Positions 18,001-21,000 of a stretch of DNA of 64,000 bases are shown here, piece by piece. Location of the stretch: NCBI RefSeq assembly GCF_988243305.1, contig NZ_OZ547136.1, one strand, 5' to 3'. A program made the position numbers. Positions within the stretch are counted from its first letter, which is position 1, and each line of letters begins with the position of its first letter.

Positions 18001-21000
18001 GATGACAAGCCTTGCGTTAATCGTGTAATCATCACTTTGTTTTTACCGCTGATTTGTTCAGGCGTGGCCTTTTACTCTCTCTATATCAATGTCGGAGATG
18101 TATTCTTTTACTGGTATATGCCAGCGGGTTATTTTAGCGCTGTTTTCCTGACCGGTTATCTCACTGGCATAGGGTATATTTTTCTGCCAAAGTTTACCCA
18201 AATTGGGCAGCAACGTTATGCCCACGGTGAAGCTATCGTTAACTATCTTGCGCGTAAAGAGGCGGCAACACACAGTGGGCGGCGGCGGAAAGGGGAAACA
18301 CGGAAACTGGATTACGCATTGTTAGGTTGGGCGGTCTCGGCAAACCTTGGAAAAGAATGGGCAGCACGTATCACGCCGTCACTCACAGCGGCTGTTCACG
18401 CCCCGGAAATTGCCCGTAGTGGCGTTTTGTTTTCATTACAGATGCACCTGAGCCTGGGGGCCAATACCAGTTTGTTGGGGCGAAGTTATTCCGGTGGTGG
18501 TGCTGGCGGCGGGGCGGGTGGCGGAGGCGGTGGTGGCTGGTAATTAAGCTGATGTTAATCGAAACAAGCTTTAACCATAAAGATAGTGTAGTATGTTGCG
18601 CCTCAAAGCCAGGCCGATAAACGTCGAGTCGTTTACTTAAGGCCTGAAGAGTTCAAACAGACTTTACTATCAGTGAGTCAGATGTAAGTTCTGACTCATT
18701 GTTGCACAAAAGCATATCAGACGCCTGGGAAGGCGACACCAAAAGGAAGCTCTATGAGCGAAAAGCTACAGAAAGTGCTGGCGCGTGCCGGCCACGGTTC
18801 TCGCCGTGAAATCGAATCTATTATTGAAGCCGGTCGTGTGAGTGTTGATGGCAAAATTGCTAAACTCGGCGATCGTGTTGAAATTACCCCTGGATTGAAA
18901 ATCCGTATCGATGGTCACCTGATTTCGATACGTGAGTCCGCTGAACAAATTTGTCGCGTTCTGGCCTATTACAAACCGGAAGGTGAGTTGTGTACCCGTA
19001 ACGATCCGGAAGGACGGCCAACGGTATTTGACCGTCTGCCAAAACTGCGTGGCGCACGCTGGATTGCCGTGGGTCGCCTGGACGTTAATACCTGTGGTCT
19101 GCTGCTGTTCACCACCGATGGTGAACTGGCAAACCGTTTAATGCACCCAAGCCGTGAAGTTGAACGTGAATATGCCGTGCGTGTATTTGGTCAGGTTGAC
19201 GACGCGAAACTGCGTGATTTGAGTCGTGGCGTGCAGTTGGAAGATGGTCCGGCAGCCTTTAAAACCATCAAGTTCAGCGGCGGCGAAGGGATCAACCAGT
19301 GGTACAACGTAACTCTGACCGAAGGCCGTAACCGTGAAGTTCGTCGTCTTTGGGAAGCGGTTGGTGTGCAGGTAAGCCGCCTGATCCGTGTTCGTTACGG
19401 TGATATCCCACTGCCAAAAGGTCTGCCACGCGGTGGCTGGACGGAGCTGGACCTCGCTCAGACTAACTATCTGCGTGAACTGGTGGAACTGCCACCAGAA
19501 ACCAGCTCTAAAGTCGCTGTAGAAAAAGACCGTCGTCGCATGAAGGCGAATCAGATTCGTCGAGCGGTGAAACGTCATAGCCAGGTGAGCGGTGGTCGCC
19601 GTTCTGGCGGACGTAATAATAACGGTTAATTTAAGTTAAGTATAAAATAAAGGCCCTGCGGGGCCTTTTCTTCATTTGAAGTATGATAAATAGTCGCAGT
19701 ATTTTAATTTAATTTCATACTTGCTTATGAATATTACCAGGAAATAGCCACATTACTATTTAATTATCTGAGATAAACTCAACGTCAAGAGGTGGGTTAT
19801 GATTAGATATAGTGGAATATTTCTATCGCTGTTAATGCTTTCAGGTTGTGCAACTGAAGCATTGAAAAACGAACAAGCTGAAACTGTTATTACTGCGGGT
19901 AACAAAGCAGTAGCGGCGAATGCAAGTTTCTTTAAACAATACTATGCTTCTCGTGAAAACTTCCTTGTTAATTTTTATGCGACTAATCCGGATTGTGCAT
20001 TGCGACCTGATTATACCATTGATATAGGCGGTGATGGGAATGGCGGAAAATTATGCCAGCGTTCAGGGCCAAATACAAAACAAGTACAATTAGTCCCTTT
20101 CGAGAAAGAAAAATTACTGGCTTCAATGGAAGTCATTAATAGCATGAGCGCTTATGTGGAACTTCTGACAAAGGATATGGCAACTACGGAAAGTCAGCAA
20201 GTGGCATTACTTAAACAGGCTCTGGATCACGCAAACAACGCACAAACACTACTTGGTGTTTCACATAGCAAAGATTTAGCTCAATCTGCAGCAGCGGTTA
20301 AAGATTTGGTAAATTATTTCAATGAGTTATATATAATTAAAGTCAATTCTGGAAAAATAGGCAAAACGGCAGATGAAAACTGGGTAAGACTTATAAAGAA
20401 CATGGCGGTTTTGCGCAATGATATTTATACAAAAAGCAATAAGATTGAAAATTATACCTTTGCGAATGTGCATGATAATATGTTTTATTATAATACGGCA
20501 TCTAAAAACTCTAAGAATACAGAGTTTAACACTCTGAAAAACAGGAAGGAGTTTCTAAGTTCAGTAATCAATGTGAATGAAACCAGACTACAGGCATCGG
20601 CACCTGCCATGCCTGCGATTGAGGCTTTAAATGCCTTTATAGATAAGGGTGATTATCTAAAAAGCTTATACGTTAATAAAACACGCACGGCAGCTGAACA
20701 AAAAAGATTAAATGAAATATTACGCGCACAGGTCATTAGTGGGTTAAAGGCGTCTGAGGGGCTGGCAAAATTACTTATTGCCAGCGGAATAATGTTATAG
20801 GAGGCTTTTTATGAACGATGTGCAAAACCGTAGAATACTGGCATTACTTGATATGCTGTATAATACTTTGGGTAATAAAACCACATGTAATGTTTGTCAT
20901 AAATATTTTATCCATATCCTCACAGTTATGAACAACCTGACGATTAACTATGGTACTGAAACTTCGCCAGAGTTAGCCGGGATAAATTATGACGATGCTA

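What the first reader, a model, noticed from the sequence alone, without database searches (positions are those of the whole stretch)
18480..18543. Gly-rich homopolymeric C-terminal tail of YciQ
YciQ ends with GGGAGGGAGGGGGGGW, encoded by a GGN repeat tract that is a plausible slipped-strand site. It may well be conserved and functionally neutral.
Basis: seen in the sequence. Interest (0 to 1): 0.12.

Follow-up and report, generated by a model that had tools for sequence, protein, structure and literature searches.

The report
Conserved polyglycine-tryptophan tail of YciQ
The glycine run at the end of E. coli YciQ is real, its length differs between strains through in-frame insertions and deletions, and it is the local copy of a glycine-then-tryptophan ending found in nearly the whole DUF2207 membrane-protein family; it is an ordinary coding repeat, not a genetic switch.

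Summary
yciQ (16648..18543, +, 631 aa, DUF2207) ends GGGAGGGAGGGGGGGW, encoded at 18493..18540.

The DNA is an imperfect GGN tract. Its longest perfect repeat is (GGT)3.3.

Tract length does vary among complete E. coli genomes. I read alleles of 18, 16, 14, 12 and 4 codons, plus one 212-nt deletion that ends inside the tract. All the small changes are multiples of 3 nt and sit between short direct repeats. In 59 evenly spaced genomes, 47 had 16 codons, 6 had 14, 5 had 12 and 1 had 18. Alleles are identical within clones such as K-12 and O157:H7, so this is slow slippage, not phase variation.

The tail is unlikely to be neutral filler across the family:
- A query without the tail retrieved 125 near-full-length homologues. 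Of these, 114 have a Gly-rich end and 110 end in W.
- Of 76 complete ORFs from many phyla that end in GGGGGGGW-stop, 73 are DUF2207 proteins.
- AlphaFold predicts the tail to be disordered, and topology places it in the cytoplasm.

Its function is unknown. My best guess is a flexible tether that presents a terminal Trp.

In E. coli the gene is dispensable. It is absent from about 27% of genomes, is disrupted by IS elements in O157:H7 and BL21, and lacks the LemA partner usual for the family. Interest is low.

The parts
16648..18543 (+). yciQ coding sequence (631 aa + TAA), a DUF2207-family inner-membrane protein
   Evidence: ORF list; Pfam PF09972 E=8.2e-23 and PF20990 E=3e-9, both above the curated cut-offs; RefSeq annotation of identical or near-identical loci
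16648..16716 (+). predicted signal peptide (residues 1-23, ...LSYA|EN)
   Evidence: hydropathy segment 1-25; AF2 helix 2-18 followed by low-confidence residues 18-26; the cleavage site is inferred
16750..17175 (+). DUF2207 N-terminal beta-sandwich domain (residues 35-176), predicted periplasmic
17497..18363 (+). DUF2207_C region (residues 284-572): cytoplasmic alpha/beta domain plus four further membrane helices
   Evidence: Pfam match; AF2 secondary structure; hydropathy
18277..18288 (+). GGGCGGCGGCGG repeat (encodes G-R-R-R); upstream end of the 212-nt deletion that joins it to the Gly tract in strain LR-28
   Evidence: sequence of L134 and blastn coordinates
18493..18540 (+). Gly-rich tail GGGAGGGAGGGGGGGW (codons 616-631); imperfect GGN tract, 81% G+C
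18493..18504 (+). extra 12-nt unit (GGT GGT GGT GCT = GGGA) upstream of the family core; this is the part that is lost or altered in most shorter alleles
   Evidence: TRF period 12; allele comparison
18505..18540 (+). family-core motif GGG-A-GGGGGGG-W, matching the consensus GGG-x-G7-W of DUF2207 proteins
   Evidence: position-specific composition in 114 homologues retrieved without the tail; alignments A1 and A2
18493..18500 (+). first copy of the 8-nt direct repeat GGTGGTGG; the 36-nt deletion in strain E7-1N7 (tail GGGW) lies between this copy and the one at 18529..18536
18529..18536 (+). second copy of the direct repeat GGTGGTGG
18505..18512 (+). GGCGGCGG run ((GGC)3 in K-12); the site of the 6-nt contraction in the 14-codon alleles
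18541..18543 (+). TAA stop codon directly after the terminal Trp codon

Best explanation
The tract encodes E. coli's version of a family-defining C-terminus of DUF2207 membrane proteins. That terminus is a disordered run of glycines, predicted to be cytoplasmic, that ends in a free C-terminal tryptophan (consensus ...GGGG-[S/F]-S-GGG-x-GGGGGGG-W-COOH).

Because it is written in GGN codons, the DNA is an imperfect trinucleotide / 12-nt repeat. It occasionally gains or loses whole codons, either by replication slippage or by deletion between short direct repeats (GGTGGTGG, (GGC)n, the 12-nt GGGA unit). This has produced a series of in-frame length alleles in E. coli (18, 16, 14, 12 and 4 codons). 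The changes mostly fall upstream of the terminal G7W core. They happen slowly enough that each clone keeps one allele, so the tract is a length polymorphism and not an on/off switch.

Shown here: the anatomy, the polymorphism, the family-wide conservation and the predicted disorder.

Inferred: the cytoplasmic location, and the function. I think the most likely function (about 0.3) is a flexible tether that presents the terminal Trp to the inner face of the membrane or to a partner on that face. LemA, the usual upstream neighbour, is the prime candidate.

In E. coli the gene has no LemA neighbour and is often lost or broken, so length changes there are probably close to neutral.
For: Anatomy.

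Alleles read base by base:
- 16 codons: window, K-12 DH1, UTI89, JX21CE8
- 18 codons: PCN033 (and E. marmotae P0049)
- 16 codons of a second type ending G5W: d1-58
- 14 codons: ST648, EC19, 82.0312, A13
- 12 codons, two different forms: O157:H7 and WCHEC96200
- 4 codons: E7-1N7

Among 10 aligned full-length alleles, every in-frame indel of the 1.9-kb gene lies in 18502..18537. The only other indel is a 7-nt frameshifting duplication.

Frequencies from 59 evenly spaced genomes: 47 / 6 / 5 / 1 for 16 / 14 / 12 / 18 codons (the same picture). Within-clone constancy: all the rows at 91.2% identity, which include the listed K-12-derived laboratory strains, have the 501-nt span, and all the sampled rows of the O157:H7-type allele have the 491-nt span.

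Family conservation:
- 10 of 28 invariant columns are in the tail.
- An unbiased search with residues 1-606 only: 114 of 125 near-full-length representatives are Gly-rich at the end and 110 end in W. Positions -8 to -4 are 98-100% Gly, position -2 is 100% Gly and position -1 is 96% Trp.
- A DNA motif scan for (GGN)7-TGG-stop: 73 of 76 complete ORFs are DUF2207_C, from Armatimonadota to Actinomycetota, Bacteroidota, Bacillota and CPR.
- Gly codons in these tails are mixed (GGC 51%, GGT 28%, GGA 13%, GGG 7%), so the conservation is on the protein.

Disorder: pLDDT below 50 for residues 597-631 in the E. coli model and for 560-591 in a pLDDT-90 model of a distant homologue.

Topology: an odd number of membrane helices after a signal peptide, and Lys/Arg-rich segments after TM1 and after the last TM. 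PMC10457818 also draws an intracellular Gly/Ser-rich C-terminus.

LemA is the upstream same-strand ORF in 34 of 59 loci. LemA-like domains are described as helical bundles on the cytoplasmic face (bioRxiv 10.64898/2026.07.15.738315).

Dispensability in E. coli. yciQ is used as a neutral integration site (PMC11943725).
Against: No experiment or structure shows what the tail binds, and AlphaFold gives no docked conformation, so the tether-and-tip function is a guess.

One natural allele has almost no tail (GGGW, E7-1N7), one has G5W (d1-58) and one has G5-S-G-W (ST648). The core is therefore not strictly required in E. coli.

Retention of G7W in most alleles could reflect lower mutability of its more mixed codons rather than selection.

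The test for avoidance of identical neighbouring Gly codons across 113 tails is only marginal (395 observed against 418 +/- 12 expected, z = -1.9).

Allele frequencies rest on systematic samples of 39 and 59 genomes, not on a full census. Alignment spans were decoded to tract length using only the indels I had read.
Confidence: 0.7

Rival explanations
1. Neutral low-complexity filler: the glycine run has no role, is tolerated at the end of the protein, and drifts in length by slippage.
For: Length varies from 4 to 18 codons among natural E. coli alleles. The whole gene is absent from about 27% of genomes and broken in others. The tail is predicted to be disordered.
Against: Neutral filler would not be the best-conserved part of a family that is only 22-30% identical elsewhere. 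It would not keep an invariant terminal Trp in 96% of Gly-tailed homologues retrieved without using the tail. It would not be nearly diagnostic of one family in a motif-first scan (73 of 76).
Confidence: 0.2
2. Phase-variable contingency locus: slipped-strand mispairing in the tract switches yciQ on and off or alters its product at high frequency.
For: The tract is repetitive and its length is polymorphic. A few metagenomic homologues end in poly-Arg, the frameshifted reading of GGN repeats (P0094, P0196).
Against: The longest perfect repeat is 3.3 units. The repeat unit is 3 nt, so unit slippage cannot shift the frame. The tract is at the very end of the ORF, where a frameshift would change only the last few residues. 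All the small indels seen are multiples of 3. Alleles are identical across many isolates of one clone. Inactivation of yciQ in nature goes through IS insertion, larger deletions, or a 7-nt duplication elsewhere in the gene.
Confidence: 0.03
3. The selected feature is the nucleic acid, not the peptide: the G-rich DNA or RNA (81% G+C, many GG runs) acts as a G-quadruplex or as a transcription or translation signal at the 3' end of the gene.
For: The tract is strikingly G-rich on the coding strand.
Against: Third codon positions vary freely across the family while the amino acids do not. The terminal TGG (Trp) is conserved as a codon with meaning only in protein. No terminator-like or promoter-like site was found in 18400..18800, and there was no Rfam match above noise.
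Confidence: 0.03
4. Protective 'slippery' cap: a cytoplasmic polyglycine end gives AAA+ proteases (FtsH, ClpXP) poor grip and so shields the membrane protein from degradation that starts at the C-terminus.
For: The inferred cytoplasmic location and disorder. That Gly-rich tracts impede AAA+ unfoldases is established knowledge recalled from the literature and was not tested here.
Against: It does not explain the near-invariant terminal Trp or the fixed GGG-x-G7 spacing. Having no tail at all would protect equally well.
Confidence: 0.08

Closest known systems
DUF2207 family (Pfam PF09972 + PF20990), e.g. Streptococcus mutans SMU.243
   Same: Both Pfam domains match above threshold. The architecture is the same: an extracytoplasmic N-domain, membrane helices, and an intracellular C-terminus 'rich of glycines and serines' (PMC10457818). 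YciQ's last 12 residues, GGGAGGGGGGGW, fit the family consensus GGG-x-G7-W.
   Different: E. coli YciQ lacks the [S/F]-S pair at -14/-13 and instead carries an extra GGGA unit. It has five rather than three membrane helices. It has yciO upstream, not LemA. The closest non-Escherichia relative found is only 53-56% identical. The papers found by my searches of the held library do not describe the G7W ending as a motif.
In-frame coding microsatellites (trinucleotide-repeat length polymorphisms), as opposed to phase-variable contingency loci
   Same: Indels are whole codons, are bounded by short direct repeats, and are concentrated in one tract of the gene.
   Different: The repeat is imperfect and short, and change is slow (fixed within clones). 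There is no frameshift switching of the kind seen in the homopolymer or tetranucleotide tracts of Neisseria or Haemophilus contingency genes (general knowledge).
SSB-type C-terminal tail (a disordered Gly-rich linker ending in a short docking tip)
   Same: It works like this only by analogy: a conserved disordered linker followed by a conserved extreme C-terminal residue. A family profile that includes the tail matches the Gly-rich region of an SSB chain and (GGGGS)n linkers in the PDB.
   Different: There is no homology. The tip here is a single Trp rather than an acidic-hydrophobic peptide. No partner is known.
GlyGly-CTERM / rhombosortase sorting signal and glycine-zipper membrane motifs
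   Same: A glycine-rich sequence at or near a C-terminus of an envelope protein.
   Different: Those motifs have a membrane helix after or around the glycines. In YciQ nothing follows the glycines except Trp and the stop codon, so the defining feature is not met.
TPM-domain / YgcG-type membrane proteins, often also encoded next to LemA
   Same: From memory, these also carry Gly-rich C-terminal tails. JGI labels some DUF2207 hits 'uncharacterized membrane protein YgcG'.
   Different: Not tested here. In the scan for exact G7W-stop ends, none of the 76 complete ORFs matched a TPM family at E<=0.001 (only four Pfam families matched any of them) and 73 were DUF2207_C, so the exact ending seems specific to DUF2207.

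Membership tests
DUF2207 (PF09972/PF20990) | N-terminal DUF2207 domain above Pfam's gathering score | tested here: met
   81.9 bits against a cut-off of 24.4, residues 35-176
DUF2207 (PF09972/PF20990) | C-terminal DUF2207_C domain above Pfam's gathering score | tested here: met
   37.4 bits against a cut-off of 33, residues 284-572
DUF2207 (PF09972/PF20990) | Signal peptide, extracytoplasmic beta domain, membrane helices, intracellular C-terminus | tested here: inconclusive
   Hydropathy and two AF2 models agree with this layout. The sidedness is inferred from the positive-inside rule and was not measured.
   The window ends GGGAGGGGGGGW. 110 of 125 homologues retrieved without the tail end in a Gly-rich stretch plus W. 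73 of 76 G7W-stop ORFs are DUF2207_C.
DUF2207 (PF09972/PF20990) | LemA gene immediately upstream (frequent, not universal) | tested here: not met
   34 of 59 family loci have LemA upstream. In the window the upstream gene is yciO.
Phase-variable contingency locus (simple-sequence-repeat switch) | Long perfect homopolymer or short-unit repeat whose unit changes shift the reading frame or promoter spacing | tested here: not met
   The longest perfect repeat is 10 nt of GGT, and the unit is 3 nt.
Phase-variable contingency locus (simple-sequence-repeat switch) | Different repeat numbers among closely related isolates | tested here: not met
   All the rows at 91.2% identity, which include the listed K-12-derived laboratory strains, share one span, and all the sampled rows of the O157:H7-type allele share another.
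GlyGly-CTERM sorting signal | Gly-Gly motif followed by a hydrophobic helix and a basic cluster at the C-terminus | tested here: not met
   Only Trp and the stop codon follow the glycines.
In-frame coding microsatellite polymorphism | Length alleles that differ by whole codons and are bounded by direct repeats within one tract | tested here: met
   Changes of -6, -12 (two forms), -36, +6 and others, all inside 18493..18540.

The most novel reading that the evidence does not exclude
The invariant G7-Trp-COOH ending is a dedicated C-terminal recognition motif of the widespread two-gene LemA-DUF2207 envelope module. [quoted passage not shown] It would couple the periplasmic ribophorin-like domain to membrane remodelling or a stress response. 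E. coli YciQ would then be an orphaned, decaying copy in which the leash is free to change length.
Probability: 0.25. Interest if true: 0.45.

Novelty: new member of a known kind. Interest (0 to 1): 0.2.

Why it matters
For E. coli it matters little. The tract is a harmless in-frame length polymorphism in a gene that many strains lack. It may be a minor typing marker, and it is a place where short-read assemblies tend to break.

The wider point is modest but concrete. DUF2207 is a very widespread bacterial membrane-protein family of unknown function. Its best-conserved sequence feature is a disordered polyglycine tail ending in tryptophan, which is almost diagnostic of the family and usually sits in a gene next to LemA. 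That gives a simple handle for experiments (tail deletion, W-to-A, peptide pull-down) on a family with almost no functional data.

Tried and rejected
- Rfam scan of 18300..18900: only noise, snoRNA models at E 0.1-0.8.
- Promoter and terminator scan of 18400..18800: nothing.
- NCBIfam: no model matches YciQ.
- PDB sequence profile search: no relative with a solved structure. The only matches are to Gly-rich linkers (scFv, DnaJ G/F, SSB).
- Literature: 'yciQ' returns mainly metabolic-engineering papers that use it as an integration site, and one pan-genome list that files it, without evidence, among regulators. Searches on polyglycine tails, YgcG, TPM and LemA gave nothing on the motif.
- A 161-nt query across the tract under-sampled the divergent 14-codon alleles, because megablast needs a 28-nt exact word: 3616 genomes matched against 3976 for the 501-nt query. 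I used the 501-nt samples for frequencies instead.
- Test for selection against identical neighbouring Gly codons: marginal (z = -1.9), so I do not rely on it.
- Downstream neighbours of DUF2207 genes: no conserved partner. glyS in 4 Rhizobiales loci looks like lineage synteny.
- A LemA-DUF2207 co-fold was considered and dropped, because the structure tool returns no inter-chain confidence.
- The idea that TPM/YgcG proteins share the exact ending was not borne out by the motif-first scan, and was not tested directly.
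Full report
**1. What is in the sequence**

The + strand ORF 16648..18543 encodes a 631-aa protein ending ...LLGRSYSGGGAGGGAGGGGGGGW.
- It matches both Pfam DUF2207 domains above their curated cut-offs: N domain residues 35-176, E = 8.2e-23; C domain residues 284-572, E = 3e-9. 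RefSeq calls the same locus yciQ.
- It lies between yciO and rluB, as in K-12.
- The Gly-rich tail is codons 616-631 = 18493..18540, followed by TAA. The finding's coordinates are therefore right, give or take four upstream codons.
- The tail has 13 Gly in 16 residues against 7.6% Gly elsewhere in the protein (P about 1e-12). Nothing comparable occurs in any other long ORF of the window.
- At the DNA level the tract is not homopolymeric: GGT GGT GGT GCT GGC GGC GGG GCG GGT GGC GGA GGC GGT GGT GGC TGG.
- Tandem Repeats Finder reports only weak period-12 and period-15 arrays. The longest perfect repeat is GGTGGTGGTG.

I aligned the region from loci fetched out of complete genomes (alignments). 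The alleles are:

| Codons | Tail | Strains |
|---|---|---|
| 16 | GGGAGGGAGGGGGGGW | window, K-12 DH1, UTI89, JX21CE8 |
| 18 | GGGSGAGGGAGGGGGGGW | PCN033; also E. marmotae |
| 16 (second type) | GGGSGAGGGAGGGGGW | d1-58 |
| 14 | GGGSGAGGGGGGGW | 82.0312, A13 |
| 14 | GGGSGAGGGGGSGW | ST648, EC19 |
| 12 | GGAAGGGGGGGW | O157:H7 |
| 12 | GGGAGGGGGGGW | WCHEC96200 |
| 4 | GGGW | E7-1N7 |

- Every small change is a multiple of 3 nt, and its ends fall on short direct repeats.
  - The 36-nt loss lies exactly between the two GGTGGTGG copies at 18493 and 18529.
  - The 6-nt loss is (GGC)3 going to (GGC)1.
  - One 12-nt loss removes one GGN-GGN-GGN-GCN unit.
- Strain LR-28 carries a 212-nt frameshifting deletion. 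It joins a GGGCGGCGGCGG repeat at 18277..18288 to the tract.
- Among ten aligned full-length alleles, all in-frame indels of the gene fall in 18502..18537. The only other indel is a 7-nt duplication that inactivates the JX21CE8 copy.
- In 59 genomes taken at even steps through the ranking of 3,976 matching genomes, the alignment spans decode to 16 codons in 47, 14 in 6, 12 in 5 and 18 in 1. An earlier sample of 39 gave 30, 5 and 4 for 16, 14 and 12 codons.
- Within clones the allele is constant. All the rows at 91.2% identity, which include the listed K-12-derived laboratory strains, share one span, and all the sampled rows of the O157:H7-type allele share another.

So the tract is an indel hot spot on an evolutionary time scale. 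It is not a fast switch. A 3-nt unit at the last 16 codons of an ORF could not act as a frameshift switch in any case.

**3. Is the tail just filler? The family says no.**

- In an alignment of YciQ with 22 homologues down to 21% identity, 10 of the 28 invariant columns are in the tail.
- To avoid circularity, I searched 1.84 billion representative proteins with residues 1-606 only. There were 4,373 hits. Of the 125 proteins of 540 aa or more among the best 150, 114 have at least 60% Gly in their last 16 residues, and 110 of those end in W.
- Several of the non-conforming proteins are probably cut short or frameshifted gene calls. One ends in poly-Arg, which is the shifted reading of GGN.
- Position by position, the ending is G(-15) [S/F](-14) S(-13) GGG(-12..-10) x(-9) G7(-8..-2) W(-1). 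Positions -8 to -4 are 98-100% Gly, position -2 is 100% Gly and position -1 is 96% Trp. YciQ's last twelve residues, GGGAGGGGGGGW, fit this exactly. The extra GGGA in front of them is the part that most E. coli variants alter.
- Going the other way, I scanned one genome per species for (GGN)7-TGG-TRA. Of the 76 complete ORFs of 150 aa or more that end there, 73 are DUF2207_C proteins. The ending is therefore close to diagnostic of the family.
- Glycine codons in these tails are mixed (GGC 51%, GGT 28%, GGA 13%, GGG 7%). What is conserved is the peptide, not the DNA.

**4. Anatomy of the protein and where the tail sits**

- Hydropathy and two AlphaFold models were used: E. coli at pLDDT 72, and an Armatimonadota homologue at pLDDT 90 and pTM 0.80.
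- Both give a signal peptide, an all-beta N-domain, one membrane helix followed by KRR, an alpha/beta domain, two or four more membrane helices, a helical Lys/Arg-rich segment, and then the tail.
- An odd number of membrane helices after an exported N-domain puts the tail in the cytoplasm. This is inference. The S. mutans paper draws the same topology (PMC10457818).
- In both models the tail is the only long stretch with pLDDT below 50, so it is conserved yet predicted to be disordered.

**5. Context**

- In the loci from the motif scan, the ORF directly upstream on the same strand is LemA in 34 of 59 cases. There is no conserved downstream partner.
- LemA-like domains are described as helical bundles on the cytoplasmic face, linked to membrane remodelling (bioRxiv 10.64898/2026.07.15.738315). 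That is the same side as the tail.
- E. coli yciQ has no LemA neighbour.
- It is also dispensable. About 1,460 of 5,422 genomes carry an unrelated 66-nt spacer in place of yciQ plus 190 nt of downstream DNA. It is split by IS1203 in O157:H7 and by IS1 in BL21. It is frameshifted or truncated in others. Metabolic engineers use it as a neutral integration site (PMC11943725).

**6. Explanation**

- Shown: the tract is the E. coli copy of a family-wide poly-Gly-Trp C-terminus. Its GGN coding makes it prone to whole-codon gain and loss between short direct repeats. The resulting alleles are stable within clones.
- Inferred: the tail is cytoplasmic. It works as a flexible leash presenting the terminal Trp to the membrane interface or to a partner, with LemA as the obvious candidate. 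I put about 0.3 on this.
- In E. coli the module is orphaned and decaying, so the length changes are probably near neutral.
- Rivals:
  - Pure filler. It fits E. coli but not the family.
  - A contingency switch. This is excluded by repeat structure, position, in-frame changes and clonal constancy.
  - A nucleic-acid signal. This is excluded by the free choice of synonymous codons.
  - A protease-resistant cap. This does not explain the Trp.

**7. Comparison with what is known, and novelty**

- YciQ is a regular member of DUF2207. The one frequent family feature it lacks is the LemA neighbour.
- A glycine/serine-rich C-terminus has been mentioned in passing for the family.
- The papers found by my searches of the held library do not describe the G7W ending as a motif or report its length polymorphism in E. 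coli.
- The phenomenon is a familiar kind: an in-frame coding microsatellite, and a conserved disordered tail with a terminal residue.
- I therefore rate it a new member of a known kind, of low interest for this window. The family-level motif is worth a small experiment.

Noticed in passing
window ~16621..18729 (yciQ plus most of the yciQ-rluB spacer): Presence/absence polymorphism. About 1,460 of 5,422 complete E. coli genomes have an unrelated 66-nt spacer between yciO and the rluB leader in place of this 2.1-kb segment. The junction was read in O111:H8 strain 08-4455 (L007).
   Followed up: partly
L004 (O157:H7 strain 1130) 671..1884; row H50 (BL21); L002 ~position equivalent to window 17296; L134 (LR-28): Independent inactivations of yciQ: IS1203 insertion in O157:H7, IS1 in BL21, a 7-nt duplication (TACTCTA) frameshift in JX21CE8, and a 212-nt deletion in LR-28.
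   Followed up: partly
window 18291..18440 and 16648..16797: Two deeply diverged haplotypes. The window differs from the K-12 allele by 22% over 18291..18440 and from B2-type alleles by 11-13% over the first 150 nt. Mean diversity across the gene is 2-4%, with peaks of 6% and 9% at the two ends. The pattern is mosaic, which suggests recombination.
   Followed up: partly
window 18544..18753 (yciQ-rluB spacer): This spacer is almost invariant among strains that have it, although the coding sequence upstream is highly variable. It folds much better than shuffled controls (-63.6 kcal/mol, z = -4.4), including a 12-bp hairpin (GUGAGUCAGA...UCUGACUCAU). There is no Rfam family and no consensus promoter or terminator. 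It is absent from the yciQ-less genomes.
   Followed up: partly
window 19799..20800 and 20811..21119: Two ORFs (333 aa and 102 aa) with no Pfam match lie between rluB and cobO. RefSeq annotates them as hypothetical proteins. They are present in ST648, WCHEC96200, E7-1N7, EC19 and LR-28, and absent in K-12, UTI89, O157:H7 and others. This looks like a strain-variable insertion.
   Followed up: partly
proteins P0031, P0036, P0039, P0040, P0046, P0050: Many public 'partial' YciQ proteins stop inside or just before the Gly tract. Draft assemblies therefore often break at this 81% G+C repeat.
   Followed up: no
[not shown]
   Followed up: no
loci L037, L045, L046, L127 (Rhizobiales): glyS (glycyl-tRNA synthetase beta subunit) lies directly downstream of the polyglycine-tailed DUF2207 gene in 4 of 46 loci. 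This is probably lineage synteny, but it is a curious neighbour.
   Followed up: no
The closest non-Escherichia homologues of YciQ are only 53-56% identical (Klebsiella spp.), far below typical E. coli-Klebsiella orthologue identity. The gene is patchily distributed in Enterobacteriaceae.
   Followed up: no
[not shown]
   Followed up: no
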